DNA of 61,704 bases, filler included. It is 7 parts of 7 records of this genome, joined end to end, with 100 filler letters (N's around TTAATTAATTAA, not from the genome) between each part and the next. Parts side by side here need not be neighbours in the genome. Positions count along the whole stretch, not along the records: positions 38,376 to 53,170 come from SRR31156797_20489; 6 more parts are not named here. One strand, 5' to 3'. Below the pieces are notes generated by a model. The model worked only from the letters and a program-made list of their open reading frames with translations. It had not been told where the DNA came from and searched no databases. Position 1 is the stretch's first letter, and each line of letters opens with the position of its first letter. Made by a program: the position numbers and the translations under genes. Of the stretch, positions 5,679-56,788 are shown one piece after another.

Positions 5679-5778
5679 NNNNNNNNNNNNNNNNNNNNNN
5701 NNNNNNNNNNNNNNNNNNNNNNTTAATTAATTAANNNNNNNNNNNNNNNNNNNNNNNNNNNNNNNNNNNNNNNNNNNN
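5679..5778. other. Artificial contig spacer
   Basis: N44-TTAATTAATTAA-N44; stops in all six frames; composition changes across it. Confidence 0.99.
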
Positions 5779-13120: not shown

Positions 13121-13220
13121 NNNNNNNNNNNNNNNNNNNNNNNNNNNNNNNNNNNNNNNNNNNNTTAATTAATTAANNNNNNNNNNNNNNNNNNNNNNNN
13201 NNNNNNNNNNNNNNNNNNNN
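13121..13220. other. Artificial contig spacer
   Basis: N44-TTAATTAATTAA-N44. Confidence 0.99.
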
Positions 13221-18363: not shown

Positions 18364-18463
18364 NNNNNNNNNNNNNNNNNNNNNNNNNNNNNNNNNNNNN
18401 NNNNNNNTTAATTAATTAANNNNNNNNNNNNNNNNNNNNNNNNNNNNNNNNNNNNNNNNNNNN
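18364..18463. other. Artificial contig spacer
   Basis: N44-TTAATTAATTAA-N44. Confidence 0.99.
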
Positions 18464-26766: not shown

Positions 26767-26866
26767 NNNNNNNNNNNNNNNNNNNNNNNNNNNNNNNNNN
26801 NNNNNNNNNNTTAATTAATTAANNNNNNNNNNNNNNNNNNNNNNNNNNNNNNNNNNNNNNNNNNNN
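26767..26866. other. Artificial contig spacer
   Basis: N44-TTAATTAATTAA-N44. Confidence 0.99.
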
Positions 26867-37171: not shown

Positions 37172-37214
37172 CTGAAACGTTTTAGGTTATATGGAGGTAA
37201 AGCGTTCCGCCCCT

Positions 37215-38275
37215 ATGAATAAGACGATTCTCATTGTAGACGACAACTTCAGGGCCTTTAAAAGCCTTACCCTCAACTTCAGGTCCCAGGGCTACGACAC
37301 CCGCTACGCCTCATGCGGAGAGGAGGCCGTCTCCGCCCTGAGACGGGAGCCCTTCTGCATCGTCCTTCTCGACCTTATGCTGGGGGATGAGGACGGCCTG
37401 GATGTGCTGGAACGGATCAGGGCCCTCTCCGACGCCCCCCCCGTGATCATGATCACCGGTTACGCCGGCATTGATTCGGCGGTGGACTCCATCAAAAGGG
37501 GGGCCTTCAACTATCTGCAGAAACCCGTTGATTTCGATCGTCTGCTGGATATGATCGAGACGGTCATGGCGGGAGAGTCGGGGGGAGTCCGGCTTCAGGC
37601 CTTCGAAACAGAGCTCTATAAAACCCGGTCTCCCGAGATGAAGCGGGTGATGGAAAAGGCCCGGAAGCTCGCGGCCACCGACTTCCCCGTGCTGATCCTG
37701 GGAGAGAACGGAACGGGGAAGGAGCTGATGGCCGAGTACATCCACCGGCACTCGGTCCGGAAGGACGCGGATCTCCATAAGATCAACTGCGCCGCCTTTC
37801 AGGAGAGCATCCTGGACAACGAGCTGTTCGGCCATAACAAAGGGGCCTACACCGGGGCCGACGACGATTTTAAGGGAATCTTCGAACTGGCCGACGGCCA
37901 GACCCTCTTTATGGACGAGATCGGGGACATGTCCCTGGCCATACAGGCCAAGATCCTCAGGACATTGCAGAACCGCGAGATCCGCCGCATAGGCGGGAAC
38001 AGGGTCATCACCGTGGACGTCCGCTTCATCGCGGCCACCAACAAGGACATCGAGGCTATGATCGGAGCGAAGGAGTTCCGGCAGGACCTCTACTACCGCC
38101 TGAACACGGCGATCGTCCACATCCCCCCTCTCCGGGAACGACTGGATGACATAGACTATCTGGCGGATATCTTCCTGAAGGATCAGCCCGGCGGCGATGA
38201 CAGGGGCTTCTCGGAAGAGGTGTTGGAGATCTTCCGGGAATACGGCTGGCCCGGCAATGTGAGGGAGCTGAAGAA
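37215..38275 (+). CDS. NtrC-family sigma54 response regulator, 3'-truncated
   Basis: REC, GENGTGKE, GAYTGA, LFMDEIGD, WPGNVREL; start could be 37191. Confidence 0.94.
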
Positions 38276-38375
38276 NNNNNNNNNNNNNNNNNNNNNNNNN
38301 NNNNNNNNNNNNNNNNNNNTTAATTAATTAANNNNNNNNNNNNNNNNNNNNNNNNNNNNNNNNNNNNNNNNNNNN
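38276..38375. other. Artificial contig spacer
   Basis: N44-TTAATTAATTAA-N44. Confidence 0.99.
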
Positions 38376-38915: not shown

Positions 38916-39965
38916 TTATATATAGTTGAATTGTTCATATCCGATTAATTCATCGTGTTGTAAAAAGCCGACAATAATACATGGTAGTATATTTTGTTTC
39001 TTAGCAAATCCCGTTATGCTTTGTTTTGTAAAAACTTTCTTTGAAGTAAATTCTGCGTAATCATCAAGATTTACAAGTAAACTACGTGCAAAATCATTCG
39101 CTTCTTTTTCTTTTGGTTTAGATTCTTTAGTTTCTTCTTCCATTGAGATTATTGGTTCTTTTGAATCATAATGAAGAAACAGATGTGCTATTTCGTGCAT
39201 GAAGGCAAACCACCGATGTGAGTGACTTTTAAAACGTCCACTTAGGTATATTGTGGGAAGCCCTTTATAAGTGGTGAGTGCACCTCTAACTTTACTATTT
39301 GTTATAGCTTCACAAATGACTAAGTAAATACCTAGTTTATTACATAATCTACGGCAACTATTTAGTGATAGTTCAGTTTCGTGATTGGTAGATAAAAGCT
39401 TGAATTTATCAAAATTCTTTTTTAATTCAGATTTATTATAAGTTTTCTCACCTAATTCTTTGTTTTGAATTTCTATTTCAGTTTCACACAAATTCATCCA
39501 TATTGCAATTGCTTCTTTTTCGCCGCCATCTTCCATGAAGTCTGCGTTTATATTTGCATAAGCAGCTTCAAACTGACTAAACTTACTTATTTTTAGTAAC
39601 TTCAACATTTCTATTGCTTGTTCTACTAGGCTCAAACCTAAACCTTCAAAAACTTCTTTAAATCTAAATCTATTTGCTGTAGCTTTTAAATTGATATTAT
39701 TTAAATCGCCCTTTTCTTTCTCCCTTGCTAAGTATTCCCTATATTTACTTTCATAATTTATCCAATACGAAGCCTCAATACCTGTTAATACTTTTTCAAG
39801 TTTTAATGCAAATTCTACAGTTAAAACGCTTTTATCGTTAAGCACATTAGATATATGTTTTTCTGTCATTCCAGTTCTCTTAGCTAATTCTTTTTGACTA
39901 ATTTTATACTCATCAAGATATTCTTTTATTAAATTTCCTGTTGGTGAAATATATATGTTTTTCAT
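38916..39965 (-). CDS. higA: HigA antitoxin HTH fused to an ImmA/IrrE (M78) metallopeptidase
   Basis: PTGNLIKEYL...SQKELAKRTG...ALKLEKVL...YWINY; FMHEIAH (HExxH) and EKEANDFA. Confidence 0.9.
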   Translation of the reverse strand: MKNIYISPTGNLIKEYLDEYKISQKELAKRTGMTEKHISNVLNDKSVLTVEFALKLEKVLTGIEASYWINYESKYREYLAREKEKGDLNNINLKATANRFRFKEVFEGLGLSLVEQAIEMLKLLKISKFSQFEAAYANINADFMEDGGEKEAIAIWMNLCETEIEIQNKELGEKTYNKSELKKNFDKFKLLSTNHETELSLNSCRRLCNKLGIYLVICEAITNSKVRGALTTYKGLPTIYLSGRFKSHSHRWFAFMHEIAHLFLHYDSKEPIISMEEETKESKPKEKEANDFARSLLVNLDDYAEFTSKKVFTKQSITGFAKKQNILPCIIVGFLQHDELIGYEQFNYI

Positions 39966-39981
39966 ATCTTCACAGCCTTTC

Positions 39982-40296
39982 TTAATGGTAGTCTTCTAAG
40001 TTGATTATTCTTATATCAGTTATAGTTGTTAAGTCGTTAATATTGAAATCGCCAATTGGCTCAATGATAAATCGATGATTTCTTGAGTAATCAACACCCC
40101 AATGATCTTTTAAATCACCTTCTAACTTGTGTCTTCTTGGGGGCGGAATATGAGGTATTTTTTTTAAATTGTCCACATTTTTTAATTCTGAATGCCTATT
40201 AAGTATATTTTTCCAATGTTTAGTATAGTGCTTTTTAATTAGTCTTGGGTCTGATAGTATTTTCTCCAATTTAGTTGATGAGTATTTTATATTCAT
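39982..40296 (-). CDS. higB: HigB/RelE-family toxin
   Basis: MNIKYSSTKLEK...RHKLEGDLKDHWGVD...RFIIEP...IINLEDYH; upstream of higA; start reassigned to 40296. Confidence 0.88.
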   Translation of the reverse strand: MNIKYSSTKLEKILSDPRLIKKHYTKHWKNILNRHSELKNVDNLKKIPHIPPPRRHKLEGDLKDHWGVDYSRNHRFIIEPIGDFNINDLTTITDIRIINLEDYH

Positions 40297-40311
40297 GAAG
40301 CTCCCCCCGTC

Positions 40312-40387
40312 GTTACATATTTTAACATAATTAACCTCATAGGTCAATTTTATATTTGTTTATATATTGTAACATTTTTGTTATAAT
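40312..40387. promoter_or_regulatory. Divergent promoters of higBA and the sce7726-like gene
   Basis: Minus strand: TTGACC(40347-40342)-N17-TAAAAT overlapped by GTTA-N7-TAAC. Plus strand: extended -10 TGTTATAAT inside the palindrome ATTGTAACA-N4-TGTTATAAT (40366-40387). Confidence 0.6.
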
Positions 40388-40414: not shown

Positions 40415-41224
40415 ATGAATAATATAAACGACAAAGAGCCAACATTGAGTGATGTGCAAAGGCTAAATGCGGTTTACTCAACAATTGAATTAAAAAAGAA
40501 TTTATATAACAACTTGAATGAAACACTTGATTCAAGATATCTTGATGCCTTATCAGAGTATAATGTTCATCAAATCTATAATCATGTCATATTAAAATAT
40601 TATCCCAATGAAGTAAGCGTAAAATCAACTTTTATCAACCAAGTACTACTAAAAGGGAAGTCACATATTAGTATATTCGAGTTACCTATAGTAAATAGTC
40701 GTGCAGATTTGTGCAAAATAAATGGTGAAAGTGTAGTATATGAGATTAAAACTGATTTAGATAATTTTACCAGGTTATCAAAACAAATCAACGATTACAA
40801 GAAGGTATTTGATAAAGTATATGTTATATGCTCAACAAATAGATTAGAACAAATGAAGAATCACATATCAAAAGATATTGGTATATATACTTATAGAATT
40901 ACTAAAAGTAGTCGCTATATATATAAGCTAGAGAGAAAAGCGCTAAAGAATGATAATTTGGATAACGAAGAGCAATTAAAGGTACTATGGAAAAAAGAAT
41001 TACGTGCCCTAGTAAATAACAGTATTGAATCAAAAGAAGAAATGATTGAATTTTTATTGAATACAATGGATAGAAACCAAATTAACAGCATATTTAAAGA
41101 ACAATTAAAGAAACGTTATCAGAAGAAGTGGGATTTCTTTAAGGAAAATCATGAACAATTACTTGAAATCGATTATCAATGGTTTTATAAAAATACATTC
41201 AATCCGGAATTCATATATCATTGA
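40415..41224 (+). CDS. sce7726-family PD-(D/E)xK nuclease-like protein
   Basis: FELPIVNSRADLCKING...VYEIKTDLDNFTRLSKQINDYKKVFDKVYVI. Confidence 0.82.
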   Translation: MNNINDKEPTLSDVQRLNAVYSTIELKKNLYNNLNETLDSRYLDALSEYNVHQIYNHVILKYYPNEVSVKSTFINQVLLKGKSHISIFELPIVNSRADLCKINGESVVYEIKTDLDNFTRLSKQINDYKKVFDKVYVICSTNRLEQMKNHISKDIGIYTYRITKSSRYIYKLERKALKNDNLDNEEQLKVLWKKELRALVNNSIESKEEMIEFLLNTMDRNQINSIFKEQLKKRYQKKWDFFKENHEQLLEIDYQWFYKNTFNPEFIYH

Positions 41225-42315
41225 TTTAAGTATTTGAATATTTGATGTATATATCGTCTAATACAAATATTTTTCCAAGTAGCCCAACTTCCATATTTAG
41301 GTATAGAGTCTATTTCTTTGTACCCTATACAATCGTTATTGATATCTAAAGTCTCTCTCATATCAAGCACTTTGGGCAATACATATTTGTAGCCCAGTAT
41401 GCCCATTTTTCTATTTTTATGAGTACATACCCAGAAATGGTTCTCGCTATAATCATAAAGTAGTGCAATTGCTGCACCTTCAGAAGGTTCTTTAATTGAA
41501 GGCAATTTATCTCTTATTCCACAGTAATCACCGAAACCGTTAAAAGTGTAATCCTCTATTATTAATCTTGCAGAAGTATCGATTAAATCAGTATACCCTG
41601 CCTCAGGATATTTGTTGTTATATATTTTAACTCGTACCGGAGAATTGAGCAGTATTTTGCATGCTTTTATATCCATATCTTCCAATTCAGACAATTCAGT
41701 AAATTTTGTATCAGGTTTCTGTTCCTGAATATCAAATAATAAAAAATCATTGTCCCTTAAATTGCTTTTTAATATTGTTTCATACTTATCTAAAAATTCT
41801 TCAGTAATTCTTAAAGCAATTTTGGTGTTTTTATTTTGCAAATCAGTAATAAAGGACTTTAACTCGCTCATAGCTAGCTCAAAACCTTTTTTTATTGAAA
41901 TAACCGGTATGAAATTTTGATATTTTGATACTTCATTCAATCTCTTCATGTATAAATCAAGATTATTATTTAGGTTGAATGATAACGCAACTTTATTAAC
42001 ATCTATATCTTTACCATATTTATCAATGGTAAACCTAAAAAAGTCTATAAATGCAAGTTTACTGTCCACTCTTTCGTTTATGCAGTCTAGTGTAACAATA
42101 TCATCTTCTGTGGGGTCTTCTTTTTCTCTTATTCTACGTTTACCGCATTGCTTATAAACATAATCACCAGTTTTTGGATTGATTTTAAAATCTAAATCAT
42201 ACTCATCATTTAATATTTCAATCAGGGGTATAATTGTATCTGAAAAACAATAATTAAGTGCTTTTGCAACTCTCATTTCTTCTTGCCTAGTTTTTAACAT
42301 TGGTACATATATCAT
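41218..42315 (-). CDS. Beta-family (P4 beta / sce7725-like) protein
   Basis: N-terminal MIYVPMLKTRQEE, IIPLIEI, IPVISI, IALRI, GFGDYCG, C-terminal GSWATWKNICIRRYI; start at 42315 after GGAGGT. Confidence 0.78.
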   Translation of the reverse strand: MIYVPMLKTRQEEMRVAKALNYCFSDTIIPLIEILNDEYDLDFKINPKTGDYVYKQCGKRRIREKEDPTEDDIVTLDCINERVDSKLAFIDFFRFTIDKYGKDIDVNKVALSFNLNNNLDLYMKRLNEVSKYQNFIPVISIKKGFELAMSELKSFITDLQNKNTKIALRITEEFLDKYETILKSNLRDNDFLLFDIQEQKPDTKFTELSELEDMDIKACKILLNSPVRVKIYNNKYPEAGYTDLIDTSARLIIEDYTFNGFGDYCGIRDKLPSIKEPSEGAAIALLYDYSENHFWVCTHKNRKMGILGYKYVLPKVLDMRETLDINNDCIGYKEIDSIPKYGSWATWKNICIRRYIHQIFKYLNQ

Positions 42316-42353
42316 CTCTCCCACCTCCATATTTCTTCTTTTGTATTTATATC

Positions 42354-46196: not shown

Positions 46197-46343
46197 ATGA
46201 AGATGAAGAGAGAAGAAGGTACAATTACAATCAATAAATATCGCAACTGCACAAAACAACACAAAACAACTATTCGCCTCTTTCTAGCATTTTATTTATG
46301 GACTTTAAGAAAGCTTTCGCAATGCCCCTTTGGTCAGAACTAA
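46197..46343 (+). CDS. 48-aa SOS-controlled microprotein, candidate antirepressor (absent from the ORF track)
   Basis: AAGGGAG RBS; MKMKREEGTITINKYRNCTKQHKTTIRLFLAFYLWTLRKLSQCPFGQN; overlaps the cI 3' end antisense. Confidence 0.6.
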   Translation: MKMKREEGTITINKYRNCTKQHKTTIRLFLAFYLWTLRKLSQCPFGQN

Positions 46344-46611
46344 GCTCATTATACATTCTAAGAAACTCCTGCTCATCAGGTGTTAAATCACTCTCGTTTG
46401 AGGGTGATTTTTTATTGTCCGAAAGTCCTAAGAGGAAATCTGTGGAGCACTCAAACAAAGACGCTAACTTTTCTAATGTTAATGCATCTGGAATACTCAC
46501 ACCTCGTTCATACGAACTATATGTTTGGCGCTTAACCTTTAAGTAGTCGGCTACATCTTGTTGGCTATAAGGTGTGTTTTTTCGAGCTTTTTTTAAATTT
46601 TCACTTAGCAT
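46270..46611 (-). CDS. CI-like prophage repressor (XRE HTH plus short helical C-terminal domain, no S24 peptidase)
   Basis: SQQDVADYLKVKRQTYSSYERG...STDFLLG; divergent from cro; start is 46611 or 46629. Confidence 0.9.
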   Translation of the reverse strand: MLSENLKKARKNTPYSQQDVADYLKVKRQTYSSYERGVSIPDALTLEKLASLFECSTDFLLGLSDNKKSPSNESDLTPDEQEFLRMYNELSSDQRGIAKAFLKSINKMLERGE

Positions 46612-46635
46612 ATTATTCTCACAATACATTTATTG

Positions 46636-46763
46636 TAGCAAATAATAATTGCTAATACAATATATGAAATAATAAATTGCAATAAAGCAAATATACATTG
46701 CAATTAGTGTTGACAAAGCAATTATAATTTGCTATTATATGAATATAGCAATTTTAAATTGCG
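46636..46763. promoter_or_regulatory. Phage switch operator array (five GCAA-N7-TTGC sites) and lytic promoter
   Basis: Sites at 46636-46654, 46665-46681 (degenerate), 46686-46702, 46717-46734 and 46746-46763; TTGACA(46710)-N17-TATTAT(46733). Confidence 0.85.
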
Positions 46764-46770
46764 GAAAGGA

Positions 46771-46980
46771 GTGATTGTTCTGAGAAACTGGTTAGTGGAG
46801 CAACGTAAGAAATGTGGTCTCTCGCAATCTGAAGTTGCGAAAAAGGTGGGAGTGACTAGGCAGATGGTAAGCGCAATAGAGCGTGGTGAAAATCCGTCAG
46901 TGGACACAGCAAAGAAACTCGGTAAAGCACTTGATGTTGACTGGACAAGATTCTACGATGAAGAGAGAAAAGGGGCGTGA
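46771..46980 (+). CDS. Cro-like XRE regulator
   Basis: LSQSEVAKKVGVTRQMVSAIERGENPSV; start uncertain (GTG 46771 or CTG 46780 after AAGGAG). Confidence 0.88.
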   Translation: MIVLRNWLVEQRKKCGLSQSEVAKKVGVTRQMVSAIERGENPSVDTAKKLGKALDVDWTRFYDEERKGA

Positions 46981-46983
46981 TGG

Positions 46984-47106
46984 ATGCCATATTACAGCGA
47001 AGATGAACAAGAAGCCTTAAACCTATACAGAGAGTTAAAGCATAGAGAGACTGTAATAGCTAAATTGCTTTGCGTGATACTAAACCGAATATTAGAAAGG
47101 AATTAA
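46984..47106 (+). CDS. 40-aa microprotein homologous to the CI C-terminal domain (absent from the ORF track)
   Basis: AAGGGG RBS; MPYYSEDEQEALNLYRELKHRETVIAKLLCVILNRILERN; 15/36 ungapped identities with the CI C-terminus. Confidence 0.78.
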   Translation: MPYYSEDEQEALNLYRELKHRETVIAKLLCVILNRILERN

Positions 47107-47108
47107 TT

Positions 47109-47270
47109 ATGCCAAATGTTGAAGATTTAAAAGTGAATATATCCATGAAAAATTCCAGGAAATTTGAGAGGAAATGCAAGCAAGTTATTTCAGCGGTAAG
47201 CGAACTACAAGAGTGCATTAGTAGTTCTCCAGATGTGAAAAAATTGCTTGCATCATTCTTAGAATTCTAG
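47109..47270 (+). CDS. Small phage hypothetical protein
   Basis: GAAAGGA RBS, then MPNVEDLKV... Confidence 0.55.
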   Translation: MPNVEDLKVNISMKNSRKFERKCKQVISAVSELQECISSSPDVKKLLASFLEF

Positions 47271-47560
47271 TTTTTTTGTGCGTATAAGGTGCCTGCAGTG
47301 CTAAGCATATCTCCCCATGAATCGAACGAAGTCACACTACTAATGTACTCGTCAAAATCTTCATCGGGTATAGCTTTAAAATCTTCCTGTGATTTCACTG
47401 TCCACTTACTGTTATTAAGCAGGTCGTAAAATGAAGAGAACTTTGAGTGCTTTTGCATGAAAGACTTTGTGAAGAGTTCCGAAAACTCAAACTCACCTGA
47501 TAAGCTTTGAATTCTATCGTTGAGTTCTTTTAATACAGAGTCATCAAATTCGAAAGACAT
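47267..47560 (-). CDS. Phage hypothetical protein on the antisense strand of the early lytic operon
   Basis: AAAGGGG RBS; MSFEFDD...ELFTKSFMQKHSKFSSF...FDSWGDML. Confidence 0.7.
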   Translation of the reverse strand: MSFEFDDSVLKELNDRIQSLSGEFEFSELFTKSFMQKHSKFSSFYDLLNNSKWTVKSQEDFKAIPDEDFDEYISSVTSFDSWGDMLSTAGTLYAQKN

Positions 47561-47635: not shown

Positions 47636-48391
47636 TTGGAACAATTAACCAAGACATTATCTAGCCTAGAAGTGGCTGAAATGGTAGGAAAGCAGCACAA
47701 GGAATTGTTGAGAGACATAAGAACTTATATTTCTCACCTTAACGAGAGCAAAGATGCGCTGGTTGTAGGAGAGCGCAAAATTGCGCTTACCGATTTTTTT
47801 ATTGAAAGTTGCTACAAAACTTTACAAAACAAAAAACTACCATGTTACCTGTTAACCAAAAAAGGTTGTGAACTCGTAGCTAATAAACTAACAGGTGAAA
47901 AGGGAACTAGATTTACTGCAACATATGTTAATAAGTTTAACGAGATGGAACAGCAGAATATTTCAGTAGAACAGTTACTGCAAGACCCTGACACAATCAT
48001 CAGGTTGGCGACTAACTGGAAAGAAGAGAAAACCAAAAGGTTGATGCTGGAAGAAAAGATAGAGCAGGACAAGCCGTATACAGAATTCGGTATCGCTATT
48101 GGTAATGCAAGTGAAGCAGTAAAGATTGGTACATTTGCTAAATCACTCGCTAATGCAGGCATTGACACAGGACAAAATCGACTTTTTAAATGGCTAAGGG
48201 TGAACGGTTACTTAGAAAGCAATAACGAGCCTTACCAAAGGTATGTATCAATGGGATTGTTCAAAATAAAAGTTAATAAAGTGAAACCAGCATATGGCGA
48301 TCCTTTCTTTACTTATACAACATTAATTACAGGTAAAGGACAAAAGTATTTCTATGAAAAGCTGAAAGTAAAAAAGCAGAAAGGAGCATAA
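47636..48391 (+). CDS. Phage antirepressor, Rha N-terminal domain plus ANT/KilAC C-terminal domain
   Basis: LSSLEVAEMVGKQHKELLRDI, YLLTKKGCELVANKLTGEKG; TGQNRLFKWLR...ITGKGQKYF; TTG start after AAAGGAG. Confidence 0.92.
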   Translation: MEQLTKTLSSLEVAEMVGKQHKELLRDIRTYISHLNESKDALVVGERKIALTDFFIESCYKTLQNKKLPCYLLTKKGCELVANKLTGEKGTRFTATYVNKFNEMEQQNISVEQLLQDPDTIIRLATNWKEEKTKRLMLEEKIEQDKPYTEFGIAIGNASEAVKIGTFAKSLANAGIDTGQNRLFKWLRVNGYLESNNEPYQRYVSMGLFKIKVNKVKPAYGDPFFTYTTLITGKGQKYFYEKLKVKKQKGA

Positions 48392-53170: not shown

Positions 53171-53270
53171 NNNNNNNNNNNNNNNNNNNNNNNNNNNNNN
53201 NNNNNNNNNNNNNNTTAATTAATTAANNNNNNNNNNNNNNNNNNNNNNNNNNNNNNNNNNNNNNNNNNNN
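53171..53270. other. Artificial contig spacer
   Basis: N44-TTAATTAATTAA-N44. Confidence 0.99.
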
Positions 53271-53467: not shown

Positions 53468-55267
53468 CTACCCAAGGACGGGAATGGTTATCTTGAACTC
53501 GCATCCCCCCTTCTCCAGGTTCCGGAATTGCATCTCGCCCTTGTATTTTCTGATGATTCCGTAACTCATGGGGAGGCCCAGCCCCATATTGCTCCCGGTT
53601 TTCTCCTTTTTCGTCGAATAAAAAGGCAGAAAGATCGATTCCCTGTCCCTCTCGCTTATTCCGGGGCCGCTGTCCGTAATCAAGAGGATCAGGGCGTCTT
53701 TTTCCGTCTCCGTCTCGATCTCGATCCGGCCGCCCCCCTGCATAACCTCAAAACTGTTCTTGATCAGATTCAGCAGAACCTGTCGGATCTCAGTCTTGCC
53801 GGCGTCTATGAAGATCTCATCGTAAGAAGAGCCGAAACGGCATTGGATCTTCCGCTCCCCCGCAGCGGGTTCCAGCAGGGTCAGGGTCTGTCGGATAAGC
53901 TGATTCACATCGAAGACGGTCGTCCTGCTCTCCCTGCTTCCCGAAAAAGAGACCAGGTTGGAGACGATTTGCTTGATCCCGTCCATCTCCTCTTCAAGCA
54001 TGACCACGACCTCGGAGGCCTTTTCCCGGGGAGGGTTCATCCTCAGAAAACTGAGATAGTTGTAGATGATTTCCAGGGGATTGTTAATCTCATGAGCCAC
54101 CCCCGCCGCCAGAAGGCCCAGGGAAGCCAGGTTCTCGGACAGGTTCATCCTCTGCCGCATCTCTTCCTGTTCGGTGATGTCCTCGATGATCGTTATGTTT
54201 CCGATGGGAAAGCGGCCGTCGAAGATCGGGTAGATCTTGATATTCGTCAGGACCTCTCCTATCTTCAGATGAAGCAGATTGGATTCCTCGTTCCTGTTGA
54301 AACAGTGCTGGATCCGTTCCAGAGAGTCTTTGTCGGGGATGATGACATCCAGCGGGCGATTCAGAAAAGCTTCAGGTTCGGAATGGAAGAAAAGCATTCC
54401 CTGGTCATTTATCATCTTAATCCGATTGTCGTCATCCGTAACGATCAGGGTGATGGGCAGATTCTTCAGTATCGCCTCGTTGTAACGCAGAAGCTGATAG
54501 AACTCCTTGTTCAGATCCTCCGACTCGGCGCTCCGGGCCACCTGTGTATAGCAGAGCTTGATCAGATTCAGACGGTCCATATTCCCCGTCGCATCGGTCA
54601 GAAGGATCTTCCCGTCCCGGATGACAGAGATTTTATCAGCCAGATCATACACGTCGTCGATGCGGTGGCTGATGCAGATGACAGCCAGTCCTTCGGCGGC
54701 TTTCCGTTTCAGGATGCGGATGACCTTGTCGAAATGCGCTCCGTTCAGCTTTGCCAGCGCTTCGTCGATGATCAGCAACTTCGGCTCTCTGAATAGGCAG
54801 CGCAGGAAGTCCAAAACCACCTTTTCCGACATGGTCAGGCCGGCATACTGGTCATGGGGATCGAGATCGAAACCGTATTCCCTTATGACCTTCTCCGCCT
54901 GCTGATACATTTTCCTTCTGCCGTTAAAGGGAAAGGGACGGAAGATCTTTTCGGGAAGGAACATATTCTCGGCAACCGTGAAGTAATCGATGAGCCCTTC
55001 GTCCTGAAAGATGATCTGGACCCCCGGATTCTGCATGGACTGGAACCTGCGGAACCGCATCTCCCTGCTGTCCCAGACTATGGTTCCGTCGGAGGGTTTC
55101 TGATTGAGGGCCATCAGCATACCGATCGTGGATTTTCCCGTCCCCCTGTCGCCGATCAGCGCATGGATCTCTCCCCTTCTCAGGGAAAAATCAAGACCCC
55201 TGATCTCCGGGAGCCCTTCCGATGAAAGGCTGATGTTTCTGAGTTCCAGGATCGGATCAGCCGTCAT
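53468..55267 (-). CDS. Fusion protein: sugar-ABC ATPase domain, PAS, histidine kinase (HisKA-HATPase)
   Basis: Walker A GDRGTGKST, Q-loop IIFQD, Walker B LLIIDE, H-loop ISHR; PAS (ILKNLPITLIVTD...ITIIEDITE); H-box GVAHEINNPL, QVLLNLIKNS, DSGPGI, FLPFYSTK, GLGL. Confidence 0.92.
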   Translation of the reverse strand: MTADPILELRNISLSSEGLPEIRGLDFSLRRGEIHALIGDRGTGKSTIGMLMALNQKPSDGTIVWDSREMRFRRFQSMQNPGVQIIFQDEGLIDYFTVAENMFLPEKIFRPFPFNGRRKMYQQAEKVIREYGFDLDPHDQYAGLTMSEKVVLDFLRCLFREPKLLIIDEALAKLNGAHFDKVIRILKRKAAEGLAVICISHRIDDVYDLADKISVIRDGKILLTDATGNMDRLNLIKLCYTQVARSAESEDLNKEFYQLLRYNEAILKNLPITLIVTDDDNRIKMINDQGMLFFHSEPEAFLNRPLDVIIPDKDSLERIQHCFNRNEESNLLHLKIGEVLTNIKIYPIFDGRFPIGNITIIEDITEQEEMRQRMNLSENLASLGLLAAGVAHEINNPLEIIYNYLSFLRMNPPREKASEVVVMLEEEMDGIKQIVSNLVSFSGSRESRTTVFDVNQLIRQTLTLLEPAAGERKIQCRFGSSYDEIFIDAGKTEIRQVLLNLIKNSFEVMQGGGRIEIETETEKDALILLITDSGPGISERDRESIFLPFYSTKKEKTGSNMGLGLPMSYGIIRKYKGEMQFRNLEKGGCEFKITIPVLG

Positions 55268-56549
55268 GGCCCATTCCGAATTTATCCAGCTTGTTGTAGA
55301 GGGTTTTCCGGCTGATGTTCAGCATCTCTGCGGCGCGCTTCTTGTTGTTTCCGGCGGCGCTGAGGGTTTGGAGTATCAGGGTCCTTTCCTGCTCCTCAAG
55401 GGAGCTGAAGGAGGAGGGCATATCTTCCTGTTCCCATATGCCATGGGGAAGGTCCGCCGGGGATATCTCATCCCCCGTAGCCAGGGCTCCCGCGTAATGG
55501 ACCGCGTTTCTCAGTTCCCTGATGTTTCCGGGCCAGGGATAGTGGAGCAAGGCGGCGACGGCTTCGCTGGAGAAGCGCAGAGGCCGTTCGGTAAAATGCT
55601 GTTCCAGGAAATGCTCTGCCAGCGGAAGTATGTCCTCGGGCCTCTCCTTGAGGGAAGGGATATGCAGAATGGCCGTGCTCAGACGGTAGTACAGATCCTC
55701 CCGGAAGCGCTTCAGACCCATCATCTCTTTCAGGTTTTTATTGGTCGCCCCGATGAAACGGACATCGATGCGAATGTTCCCGTTGCCGCCGATACGGCGG
55801 ATTTCCTGATTCTGAAGGGTTCTGAGAATCTTAGCCTGGGTCTGCAGGGACATATCCCCCAGCTCGTCCATGAACAGGGTCCCCCCGTCGGATCGCTCAA
55901 AGATACCGGCGAACCGACTGTCCGCCCCCGTATAAGCCCCTTTCTCATGTCCGAAAAGCTCGTTGTCCAGAAGATTCTCCGGGAAGGCCGCGCAGTTGAT
56001 GCTGTGCAGCTCCCTTGAGCCGCGCTTTGAATGCTGATGCAGGAAGTAGGCGAGCCTCTCCTTTCCCGTTCCGCTGTCTCCGGTAATGAGAACCGGAAAA
56101 TCCGTTTGAGCCAGCCGTTCCGCCTTCGCAAGCAGATTGACCATAATCTTGGACTTGGTGATGATCCGCTCTCCCTCCCCGGGCTCCCTGCGCTTGAGGG
56201 TATGCTCAATGATCTTCAGAAGATTGGGGAAGTTCAAGGGTTTCTGTACGTAATCGGATGCGCCCCGCTTCATGGCGATCACCGCCGTTTCGATGGATCC
56301 GTATCCGGTTATCATGATAACCGGCAGCTTGGGATACAGACGCCTTATCTTCACAAGGACGTCCAAACCGCTTTCCTCTTTCAGGGAGAGATCCAGTAAA
56401 ACGATATCCGGCAGGCTTCTGCCCAGCTTCCCGAGGGCATCGGAACTGTTCAGCGCGTAATGATAACTGAAACCGAGCTGTTGAAAATTCATCTCAAGGC
56501 TCTTACAGAGTTTCTCTTTGTCGTCGATTACAAGTACTGCTTTATTCAT
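55257..56549 (-). CDS. NtrC-family sigma54 response regulator
   Basis: REC, GDSGTGKE, GAYTGA, WPGNIREL, Fis HTH; start reassigned to MNKAV 56549; overlaps the kinase start. Confidence 0.95.
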   Translation of the reverse strand: MNKAVLVIDDKEKLCKSLEMNFQQLGFSYHYALNSSDALGKLGRSLPDIVLLDLSLKEESGLDVLVKIRRLYPKLPVIMITGYGSIETAVIAMKRGASDYVQKPLNFPNLLKIIEHTLKRREPGEGERIITKSKIMVNLLAKAERLAQTDFPVLITGDSGTGKERLAYFLHQHSKRGSRELHSINCAAFPENLLDNELFGHEKGAYTGADSRFAGIFERSDGGTLFMDELGDMSLQTQAKILRTLQNQEIRRIGGNGNIRIDVRFIGATNKNLKEMMGLKRFREDLYYRLSTAILHIPSLKERPEDILPLAEHFLEQHFTERPLRFSSEAVAALLHYPWPGNIRELRNAVHYAGALATGDEISPADLPHGIWEQEDMPSSFSSLEEQERTLILQTLSAAGNNKKRAAEMLNISRKTLYNKLDKFGMGHDG

Positions 56550-56628
56550 GGTCCCGCCCGAAGAAGAGTGACATCCGCCGATGGATCTGTCAAGAGAAAA
56601 ATCAGTACCCGAAAAAGGACGGAGAAGC

Positions 56629-56680
56629 TGTGTAAAACTTACACATATCAGGGCCCCAGGGGCTGTGTATTTTCTACCCA
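56629..56680. promoter_or_regulatory. Tandem bEBP enhancer sites TGTGTA-N5-TAC(A/C)CA
   Basis: TGTGTAAAACTTACACA (56629-56645) and TGTGTATTTTCTACCCA (56664-56680), 35 bp apart and about 110-160 bp upstream of the -24 element. Confidence 0.75.
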
Positions 56681-56788
56681 TACCCCACCGGTTCATCATA
56701 GAGTCATGGCGGATTCGGGAAAGGGATCCGGCCTTTAATACCGGGCAGCCAAGCATTTAAAAAGAAAAAGTTTTCAATGTTCAGAAAT

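What the first reader, a model, noticed from the sequence alone, without database searches (positions are those of the whole stretch)
46984..47106. Unannotated 40-aa gene after cro is a stand-alone copy of the CI C-terminal domain
Seen: MPYYSEDEQEALNLYRELKHRETVIAKLLCVILNRILERN aligns without gaps to the CI tail TPDEQEFLRMYNELSSDQRGIAKAFLKSINKMLERG at 15/36 identities (DEQE.L..Y.EL......IAK......N..LER). It has its own RBS and is the second gene of the lytic operon. Established: B. subtilis SinI inactivates SinR by mimicking its oligomerisation helices. Inference: a dominant-negative antirepressor that poisons CI oligomers and locks in lysis, which would be a SinI-like commitment step in a phage switch.
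Basis: partly seen in the sequence, partly recalled or inferred. Interest (0 to 1): 0.85.

Follow-up and report, generated by a model that had tools for sequence, protein, structure and literature searches.

The report
Tail-only copy of phage repressor
A 40-residue gene right after cro in a phage fragment is a genuine, old copy of the repressor's C-terminal helical tail, apparently made by splitting a second repressor-like gene in two, and it probably switches the repressor off by pairing with its tail.

Summary
ORF40 (46984..47106, +) matches the CI tail without gaps: 15/34 identities, E 7e-8, and 0 of 2000 shuffles reach its score. It has a Shine-Dalgarno site and lies in a cro-ORF40-ORF53 unit behind a strong promoter flanked by GCAA-N7-TTGC operators.

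- ORF40 is in frame with cro, separated only by TGA-TGG. Read through, cro+ORF40 aligns collinearly with the whole of CI (35/106 identities, E 9e-13). The pair is therefore a CI paralogue split into an HTH-only Cro and a tail-only peptide.
- The tail is a widespread module of short XRE and S24-type repressors. In every other case examined it is fused to an HTH.
- Small antirepressors that bind the C-terminal oligomerisation domain of a phage repressor were described in 2025 (AimX-AimC).

Third codon positions are saturated, so the protein similarity has been kept by selection. The predicted CI-tail/ORF40 complex gets only weak support (0.56; best control 0.00). No relative exists in any collection searched, and the only DNA evidence is a contig at about 5x depth. 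There are no expression or binding data.

Verdict: a plausible SinI/AimX-like antirepressor, a new variant of a known kind. A broken gene is the main rival.

The parts
46270..46629 (-). CI-like repressor, 119 aa from the first ATG (a second in-frame ATG at 46611 would give 113 aa). XRE-type HTH at residues 12-66, followed by a roughly 40-aa helical tail. No peptidase domain.
   Evidence: Pfam HTH_3 E 9.7e-14 and nothing else significant. phrog_8 transcriptional regulator E 6.6e-23. The PDB matches 7t8i and 9iaq cover the HTH only.
46273..46389 (-). CI C-terminal tail module (residues 81-119), containing the motif DEQE.L..Y.EL......IAK......N..LER.
   Evidence: AF2 single-sequence model places helices at 84-94 and 98-117, with pLDDT 67-73 in that region. 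Related tails occur in other HTH repressors.
46638..46652 (.). Operator-like palindrome GCAA-N7-TTGC, overlapping the leftward promoter-like site.
46687..46701 (.). Operator-like palindrome GCAA-N7-TTGC, just upstream of the -35 of the rightward promoter.
46710..46738 (+). Rightward early promoter TTGACA-17-TATTAT (11 of 12, with TG). The operator 46718-46732 lies in its spacer.
46748..46762 (.). Operator-like palindrome GCAA-N7-TTGC, just downstream of the -10.
46771..46980 (+). cro-like HTH-only gene, about 66-69 aa, ending in TGA at 46978-46980. The start codon is uncertain: in-frame GTG 46771, ATT 46774 or CTG 46780 follow the SD AAAGGAG at 46764-46770. The TTG at 46729 lies inside the promoter. 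A fifth GCAA-N7-TTGC lies inside the gene at 46824-46838.
   Evidence: Pfam HTH_3 E 2.4e-17. Sequence read directly..
46970..46975 (+). Shine-Dalgarno site AAGGGG for ORF40, inside the 3' end of cro.
46984..47106 (+). ORF40: a 40-aa tail-only paralogue of CI, in the same frame as cro and separated from it by TGA-TGG.
47109..47270 (+). ORF53, third gene of the unit, with its own SD (AAAGGA). No family match. It converges on a minus-strand gene (47267..47560).
47636..48391 (+). Rha + KilAC/ANT-type antirepressor-family protein, first gene of the next rightward unit.
   Evidence: Pfam Phage_pRha E 3.3e-27 and ANT E 2e-21.

Best explanation
ORF40 is a separately translated, tail-only paralogue of the phage repressor. 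An ancestral second regulator had the same HTH-linker-tail layout as CI. It was split by a stop codon plus a restart site into an HTH-only Cro and a 40-aa helical peptide.

The peptide is made from the CI-repressed rightward promoter together with Cro. It pairs with the C-terminal helices of CI in place of a second CI subunit. CI:ORF40 heteromers carry a single HTH and cannot bind the palindromic GCAA-N7-TTGC operators cooperatively. Any firing of the lytic promoter therefore titrates CI and reinforces itself. This is a SinI/SinR-like or AimX/AimC-like antirepression wired as positive feedback.

Shown here: the homology, collinearity, reading frame, RBS, operon position and ancient divergence under protein-level constraint. 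Inferred: translation, binding, and loss of CI oligomerisation and DNA binding.
For: - Tail homology: E 7e-8, and 0 of 2000 shuffles reach the score.
- Collinearity: cro read through its TGA aligns with the whole of CI (35/106 identities, E 9e-13). The only gaps fall inside the HTH, so the distance from the last HTH helix to DEQE is the same in both.
- Old divergence with constraint: third-position identity is 9/34, against 0.26 expected from composition. Only 4 of the 15 identical residues share a codon, yet amino-acid identity is 44%.
- Restart context: the SD energy of -8.8 kcal/mol would rank about 10th among 18 likely starts. It is matched by 0.47% of 3225 internal positions and by 1 of 71 internal ATGs.
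- Reciprocal best match: among 12 related tails, ORF40's best match is its own neighbour's CI tail, and the reverse also holds. It is the only alignment spanning both helices (33 aa).
- Predicted complex of CI 72-119 with ORF40: weak support. Scores were 0.56/0.56/0.57 and the best of 3 controls was 0.00. The runs agree in at least 90% of contacts and partner pLDDT is 79-80. The mark was reached by 51 of 78 solved complexes and 2 of 108 mismatched pairs. At 0.60 or under it was reached by only 5 of those 78 and by all 4 mismatches that passed.
- CI has no peptidase domain and no adjacent ImmA gene, so some antirepressor route is expected.
- Precedents: AimX (29-80 aa) binds the C-terminal oligomerisation domain of AimC and blocks its oligomerisation. 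SinI and SinR share the heterodimer-forming residues (abstract of PMC3163267 in the listing).
Against: - No relative of ORF40 or of this CI tail was found in 5.8 billion clustered proteins or in 1.84 billion representatives (the one hit is spurious). The phage, viral, genome and metagenome searches also found none. Conservation and co-variation are therefore untested.
- The stand-alone form was seen nowhere else. It was absent from all 7 profile matches in 399 Clostridia genomes, from the 7 repressor-linked motif hits in viral contigs, and from the 56 tails of 43 loci. Among 12,595 ORFs, only a weak, out-of-context 60-aa hit turned up.
- The sequence rests on one run, probably the source, at depth about 5. 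A recent nonsense mutation or an assembly error cannot be excluded.
- By the tool's own calibration, a complex score at or under 0.60 is more often wrong than right unless the pairing was likely beforehand.
- AF2 models ORF40 alone as one continuous helix, but the CI tail as two helices in a low-confidence model.
- The same module also sits between the HTH and an S24 peptidase domain in other repressors, so its role as the oligomerisation surface is assumed, not shown.
- There are no expression data.
Confidence: 0.45

Rival explanations
1. Broken gene. The phage's second regulator is normally a full-length HTH+tail protein, a CI paralogue comparable to the tail-sharing pairs seen in other phages. 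In this one assembly it carries a recent nonsense mutation or a base-calling error at 46978-46980. ORF40 would then be only the untranslated or functionless 3' part.
For: ORF40 is in the same frame as cro, with one stop between them and full collinearity with CI. Full-length regulators sharing a tail do sit side by side in Brevibacillus phage Abouo (gp49/gp50, tail E 1.7e-7) and in L039 (three tandem copies, E down to 4.5e-11). There is a single low-depth source, no stand-alone copy elsewhere, and the protein-level constraint would be explained equally well by a former life as part of a longer protein.
Against: A good SD and an ATG lie one codon after the stop. The joint frequency of such a context at internal in-frame positions of the contig is about 3 in 10,000. 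No unsplit relative was found: one search gave 1 hit, HTH only, and one search gave 0 of 30 phage records covering 80% or more. The longest of those, H63, is an unrelated 235-aa HTH protein. The contigs of the one run show no alternative base.
Confidence: 0.28
2. Two products by design. Most ribosomes stop at the TGA and make Cro, but occasional read-through yields a long Cro with the CI-type tail. This long form can homodimerise or pair with CI. ORF40 may or may not also be made by restart.
For: The stop and restart are in frame, and the read-through product would have exactly the CI architecture. Low-level UGA read-through as Trp in Firmicutes is recalled from the literature and was not checked here.
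Against: TGA is an ordinary stop in this contig, used by 10 of 27 ORFs, several of them overlapping the next start. No read-through signal was identified. The SD and ATG argue for restart rather than read-through.
Confidence: 0.07
3. ORF40 binds tail modules but is not a simple CI poison. It might block only dimer-dimer cooperativity between neighbouring operators, stabilise CI, or target the related tails of repressors of other prophages or host XRE regulators (cross-talk or anti-immunity).
For: The module is widespread in HTH repressors of phages and Clostridia. Helix 1 of ORF40 matches foreign tails nearly as well as its own CI: 27.3 bits against 30.8. Operator centres lie 31 and 30 bp apart, about three helical turns, which suggests cooperative binding (inference).
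Against: The full-length, two-helix match is to the cognate CI only. Nothing in the data points to another target.
Confidence: 0.12

Closest known systems
SinI-SinR of Bacillus subtilis, with the paralogous pair SlrA-SlrR
   Same: A small helical protein shares sequence with the C-terminal oligomerisation helices of a neighbouring XRE-type HTH repressor. It is thought to act by forming a heteromer that removes the repressor from DNA. The SinR/SinI description comes from the abstract of PMC3163267 in the listing. SlrR/SlrA is known to me only from the title of PMC3917956 and from recall. A full-length tail-sharing paralogue (SlrR-like) is what cro+ORF40 would be if read through.
   Different: There is no detectable membership in the Pfam SinI family. 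The setting is a phage lysis-lysogeny switch rather than a host developmental switch. ORF40 sits in the repressed operon itself, giving positive feedback, rather than under a separate signal-controlled promoter. It appears to have arisen by fission of the Cro-position gene.
AimX-AimC of extended arbitrium modules in Bacillus phages (bioRxiv 10.1101/2025.11.23.689978; abstract, passages, sections 9 and 11 read)
   Same: A very small (29-80 aa), mostly helical phage protein is reported to bind the C-terminal oligomerisation domain of a short HTH repressor and to block its oligomerisation and operator binding. The AimC-type repressor has an HTH, a linker and a short helical C-terminal domain. The window's CI matches the HTH of PDB 9iaq, which I take to be AimC (E 2e-6).
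   Different: AimX lies downstream of aimP under AimR control. The text I read does not describe it as a sequence homologue of the AimC tail. ORF40 lies after cro, is a recognisable paralogue of the tail, and no arbitrium genes were seen among the contig proteins scanned. The CI tail here does not match the 9iaq C-terminal domain.
Other small phage antirepressors: Qtip and the TF-smORF modules of Vibrio phages, P1 Coi, TP901-1 MOR
   Same: All are small phage proteins that inactivate a CI-type repressor without cleaving it (passages of the review PMC11323111; listing of PMC10432266).
   Different: According to the passages read, those proteins show little or no homology to each other or to their targets. 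MOR carries its own HTH and acts on operator binding. None is described there as a copy of the repressor's own tail.
Tail-sharing full-length regulator pairs in phages (Brevibacillus phage Abouo gp49/gp50; three tandem copies in metagenome locus L039)
   Same: Neighbouring XRE regulators have C-terminal tails that are clearly homologous to each other. This is the state that cro+ORF40 would represent before the split.
   Different: In those cases every copy keeps its HTH. None is reduced to the tail alone.

Membership tests
SinI antirepressor family (Pfam PF08671 SinI domain) | Sequence match to the SinI domain model | tested here: not met
   hmmscan against Pfam-A at E <= 1 gave 0 families for ORF40 and no SinI hit for CI.
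SinI antirepressor family (Pfam PF08671 SinI domain) | Small protein homologous to the oligomerisation helices of its neighbouring HTH repressor | tested here: met
   15/34 identities, E 7e-8. 0 of 2000 shuffles reach the score. Reciprocal best match among 12 tails.
SinI antirepressor family (Pfam PF08671 SinI domain) | Forms a heteromer with the repressor that abolishes DNA binding | not testable with these tools
   Only a prediction is available: weak support, 0.56 against a best control of 0.00. Biochemistry is needed.
AimX-type small antirepressor (extended arbitrium module) | Size 29-80 aa and mostly helical | tested here: met
   40 aa. AF2 places a helix at 6-39 with pLDDT 95.2.
AimX-type small antirepressor (extended arbitrium module) | Encoded downstream of aimP and controlled by AimR | tested here: not met
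   ORF40 follows cro in the rightward operon. None of the contig proteins scanned resembled arbitrium components. The contig is a fragment, so such genes could lie outside it.
AimX-type small antirepressor (extended arbitrium module) | Binds the C-terminal oligomerisation domain of the HTH repressor | tested here: inconclusive
   Weak support only.
C-terminal tail module of short XRE / CI repressors (unnamed; motif DEQELL..Y.EL followed by a second helix) | Sequence similarity to tails that follow an HTH in independent repressors | tested here: met
   ORF40 against L061 gives 27.3 bits, against L058/L060 26.2, and against L073 21.6. Those ORFs carry HTH domains. Caveat: the viral examples were fished with helix 1's own motif.
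C-terminal tail module of short XRE / CI repressors (unnamed; motif DEQELL..Y.EL followed by a second helix) | Fused to an N-terminal HTH in the same polypeptide | tested here: not met
   A TGA separates it from the cro HTH, and TGA is a normal stop in this contig.
Pseudogene fragment of a split regulator | In frame and collinear with the upstream piece | tested here: met
Pseudogene fragment of a split regulator | No translation signals of its own | tested here: not met
   An SD and an ATG lie one codon after the stop. Such a context occurs at about 3 in 10,000 internal positions.

The most novel reading that the evidence does not exclude
This locus may catch the birth of a SinI-type antirepressor inside a phage switch. 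A CI paralogue in the Cro position has been cut by a stop-and-restart into an HTH-only Cro and a tail-only microprotein. The microprotein titrates CI from within the operon that CI represses, giving a self-locking commitment to lysis. If so, fission of tail-sharing regulator pairs would be a general route by which XRE repressors acquire cognate antirepressors. Tail-only ORFs too small to be annotated may then be a hidden layer of control over the very common HTH+tail repressors.
Probability: 0.4. Interest if true: 0.7.

Novelty: new variant of a known kind. Interest (0 to 1): 0.55.

Why it matters
Small antirepressors that block repressor oligomerisation have only just been shown in arbitrium phages, and their origin is unknown because they have no recognisable relatives. 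Here the antirepressor candidate is visibly a copy of its target's tail, and the way it was made (gene fission with translational restart) can be read from the sequence.

That gives a concrete evolutionary route linking Cro, CI and SinI-like proteins. It also gives a simple, cheap experimental system: three small genes and a 150-bp operator region. Finally, it argues for scanning the space after cro-like genes for tail-only ORFs that gene callers skip.

If the stop is only a lesion in one low-coverage assembly, the locus is an ordinary pair of tail-sharing regulators.

Tried and rejected
**Searches for relatives**
- ORF40 in the 5.8-billion-cluster collection, lengths 22-70 aa: no candidate.
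- CI residues 70-119 in the same collection: no candidate.
- phmmer of ORF40 against 1.84 billion representatives: one hit, a 924-aa protein matched three times over residues 8-22. I judge it spurious. The PDB search gave the same kind of summed hits to designed pentatricopeptide repeats.
- tblastn of ORF40 against phages: 2 records at E 6, which is chance level.
- CI against viral, genome and metagenome contigs: 2, 23 and 15 loci, nearly all matching the HTH only. The closest, L026 (44% over residues 9-109), has a different tail, an ImmA-like neighbour and an unrelated 25-aa ORF after cro.
- cro and ORF53 against viral contigs: 2 distant loci and none.

**Search for an unsplit form of cro+ORF40**
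- One hit, HTH only.
- 0 of 30 phage records covered 80% or more.
- H63 turned out to be an unrelated 235-aa protein.

**Other leads that gave nothing**
- Recoded TGA: rejected. Stops are TGA 10, TAA 10 and TAG 7 of 27 ORFs.
- Solved structures for the tail profile: nothing below E 0.2.
- ESM Atlas: best score 0.85, below the level at which a hit counts.
- Earlier findings of this scan: none for this genome.
- L057's 60-aa ORF carrying the motif sits among unrelated genes and is taken as chance.

**Sequencing runs**
- One DNA holder, probably the source, plus a second run of the same sample holding next to none of the words. No RNA holder is listed.
- The holder's two contigs are identical to the window at depth about 5. 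This is not independent support.

**Steps that could not be run**
- No whole genome is held for the window.
- A broader alignment-based viral scan was not conserved enough to run.
- A looser motif scan had too few specified bases. I dropped the looser scan.

**Literature searches**
- 'SinI-like' plus 'phage': 0 papers.
- 'dominant negative / truncated repressor / prophage induction / dimerization domain': 2 irrelevant papers.
- Searches found the AimX preprint and the small-protein papers, but nothing describing a tail paralogue after cro.

Full report
**What is there.**
The window is not one piece of DNA. Six N44-TTAATTAATTAA-N44 spacers join separate contigs. The region of interest lies on a 14.8-kb AT-rich contig (38376..53170, GC about 0.29-0.41) set between GC-rich contigs (about 0.54-0.60).

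The contig carries the early region of a temperate phage.
- A leftward CI-like XRE repressor at 46270..46629. Pfam finds HTH_3 only, E 9.7e-14.
- A 150-bp control region.
- A rightward cro-like HTH gene ending at 46980, then ORF40 (46984..47106) and ORF53 (47109..47270).
- A convergent minus-strand gene.
- A second rightward unit with a Rha+ANT antirepressor-family protein, a DUF1351 protein, a RecT-like protein and a metal-dependent hydrolase.

The control region has a near-consensus promoter, TTGACA-17-TATTAT with TG, at 46710-46738. GCAA-N7-TTGC occurs five times in the window, all within 46638-46838, against 0.84 expected; 0 of 100 shuffles reach five. One copy sits in the promoter spacer, one just upstream of the -35 and one just downstream of the -10. 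This is a classical bidirectional switch.

BLASTP aligns ORF40 7-40 with CI 85-118: 15/34 identical, no gaps, E 7e-8. The best ungapped score is 68. None of 2000 shuffles of ORF40 reached it (mean 22.1, sd 3.7, maximum 45).

ORF40 has an SD (AAGGGG) 8 nt before its ATG. With a generic anti-SD, its pairing energy of -8.8 kcal/mol would rank about tenth among 18 likely gene starts of the contig. Only 0.47% of 3225 internal in-frame positions match it, and only 1 of 71 internal ATGs does.

The cro stop (TGA, 46978-46980) is followed by TGG and then the ATG of ORF40, all in one frame. Read through with X at the stop, cro+ORF40 aligns with CI end to end: 35/106 identities, E 9e-13. The only gaps fall inside the HTH, so the unconserved linker has the same length in both proteins.

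The simplest history is that the Cro-position gene was once a full-length paralogue of CI (HTH, linker, tail) and has been cut in two. TGA is an ordinary stop here: it ends 10 of 27 ORFs, several overlapping the next start. A recoded genetic code is therefore not the explanation.

**The divergence is ancient and constrained.**
Over the 34 aligned codons, third-position identity is 9/34. Base composition predicts 0.26, so synonymous sites are saturated. Only 4 of the 15 identical residues use the same codon. Keeping 44% amino-acid identity over that distance means the ORF40 sequence has been under protein-level selection. That selection could have acted on it as a separate peptide or, until recently, as part of a longer protein.

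**The tail is a common module, but only here is it alone.**
A scan of viral contigs for helix 1's motif (DEQE.L..Y.EL) found 14 stretches. Seven lie just after an HTH in repressor-like ORFs.
- Four have a C-terminal extension. Pfam confirmed Peptidase_S24 in the two tested, L053 and L064.
- Three are short proteins of 126-135 aa. An HTH was confirmed in L058 and L061.

A profile of seven tails was searched in 399 scored Clostridia genomes (2 further genomes were not scored). It matched in 7, and every match lay in an ORF of 114-265 aa after an HTH-like region. Pfam confirmed the HTH in L067 and L071.

I then tested 56 tails from 43 of the 49 loci then in hand, plus the window. Six loci had tails under 22 aa, and some loci are duplicates of the same sequence. 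Only the window's CI tail hit a small separate ORF.

The same scan showed full-length regulators sharing a tail side by side: Brevibacillus phage Abouo gp49/gp50 (E 1.7e-7) and three tandem genes in L039. That is the unsplit state.

Among 12,595 ORFs of all 76 sources held, the only short ORFs matching the profile were ORF40 itself, which is part of the profile, and a weak 60-aa hit in an unrelated context. Among 12 tails, ORF40's best match is its own CI tail, and the reverse also holds. It is the only alignment covering both helices. One caveat applies: the viral tails were selected by helix 1's motif.

**No relatives.**
No search returned a homologue of ORF40, of this CI tail, or of an unsplit cro+ORF40. 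One sequencing run, probably the source, holds the stretch. Its contigs are identical at depth about 5. Conservation, co-variation and the reality of the stop in a population therefore cannot be judged.

**Structure and binding.**
- AF2 without an alignment models CI poorly (pLDDT 53.5) but places helices at 84-94 and 98-117.
- ORF40 alone is modelled as one confident helix, residues 6-39, pLDDT 95.2.
- The complex test of CI 72-119 with ORF40 gave weak support. Scores were 0.56, 0.56 and 0.57, and the best of 3 controls was 0.00. The runs agree in at least 90% of contacts and partner pLDDT is 79-80.
- By the tool's calibration, 51 of 78 solved complexes and 2 of 108 mismatched pairs reach the mark. 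At 0.60 or under, only 5 of those 78 solved complexes do, along with all 4 mismatches that passed.
- This nudges the odds up but proves nothing.

**Mechanism proposed.**
CI has no peptidase domain and no adjacent ImmA gene. The only M78 peptidase of the contig is fused to its own HTH 6 kb away. Inactivation by a binding partner is therefore expected.

I propose that ORF40 is translated, probably coupled to cro, and pairs with the CI tail in place of a second CI subunit. That leaves CI with one HTH per complex, unable to hold palindromic, closely phased operators; their centres are 31 and 30 bp apart. Because ORF40 is transcribed from the promoter that CI represses, this is a positive feedback that acts alongside Cro.

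The steps from translation onward are inference.

**Comparison with what is known.**
- SinI-SinR is the textbook case of a small protein that shares its repressor's oligomerisation helices. I saw the abstract of PMC3163267 in the listing. The 1998 structure paper linking SinR to phage repressors is recalled, not seen. ORF40 works like SinI on this model but is not a detectable member of the Pfam SinI family.
- The closest phage precedent is the AimX-AimC pair (bioRxiv 10.1101/2025.11.23.689978; abstract, passages and sections 9 and 11 read). AimX proteins of 29-80 aa bind the C-terminal oligomerisation domain of a short HTH repressor and prevent oligomerisation and DNA binding. The authors themselves compare this to SinI-SinR. 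ORF40 differs in position (after cro, not after aimP), in wiring (self-reinforcing, not signal-controlled), and in being a visible paralogue of its target.
- Other small antirepressors (Qtip, Coi, MOR) are unrelated in sequence and mode, according to passages of PMC11323111.
- My searches found no paper describing a tail paralogue after cro. Supplements were closed.

**Verdict.**
The feature is real, and its evolutionary reading as a split CI paralogue is well supported. The antirepressor function is plausible (about 0.45), with a broken gene as the main rival (about 0.28). It is a new variant of a known kind and rests on a single low-coverage contig.

Noticed in passing
window 5679-5778, 13121-13220, 18364-18463, 26767-26866, 38276-38375, 53171-53270: Six N44-TTAATTAATTAA-N44 spacers show that the window is a chain of separate contigs. 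The phage piece (38376..53170, GC about 0.29-0.41) differs sharply in composition from its GC-rich neighbours (0.54-0.60) and may not belong to the same organism.
   Followed up: partly
window 46764-46782: The cro start codon is unclear. After the SD AAAGGAG (46764-46770), the only in-frame candidates are GTG 46771 (no spacing), ATT 46774 and CTG 46780. The TTG at 46729 listed by the ORF finder lies inside the promoter.
   Followed up: partly
window 46605-46641: The leftward promoter-like site (TTGCTA-18-AATAAT, 46641-46612) overlaps the first ATG of CI (46629). The second in-frame ATG (46611) lies right at the -10, so CI may start there, possibly on a leaderless or very short-leader mRNA.
   Followed up: no
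window 38916-40347: A 349-aa protein combines an N-terminal HTH with an IrrE/ImmA-type M78 peptidase domain. It is preceded on the same strand by a 121-aa ORF with no family match. This could be a toxin-antitoxin-like or ImmA-like module far from CI.
   Followed up: partly
window 40415-42330: A 370-aa 'Beta protein' (PF14350, E 6.3e-10) converges on and overlaps a 269-aa ORF with no Pfam match. The pair's function is unknown.
   Followed up: no
L043 (Brevibacillus phage Abouo) 2492-3529; L039 1646-2823: Neighbouring full-length XRE regulators share homologous C-terminal tails: Abouo gp49/gp50 at E 1.7e-7, and three tandem genes in L039 at E down to 4.5e-11. They might form mixed oligomers.
   Followed up: partly
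L053 567-1268, L064 568-1323, and the same motif in L055 and L062: The same DEQELL..Y.EL helical module sits between the HTH and a Peptidase_S24 domain in LexA/CI-type repressors. No Pfam family covers it and no solved structure matched its profile.
   Followed up: partly
window 37191-38275 and 55257-56756: The GC-rich contigs on either side of the phage contig each end in or carry a sigma-54-type response regulator (NtrC-like by sequence appearance). They are unrelated to the finding.
   Followed up: no
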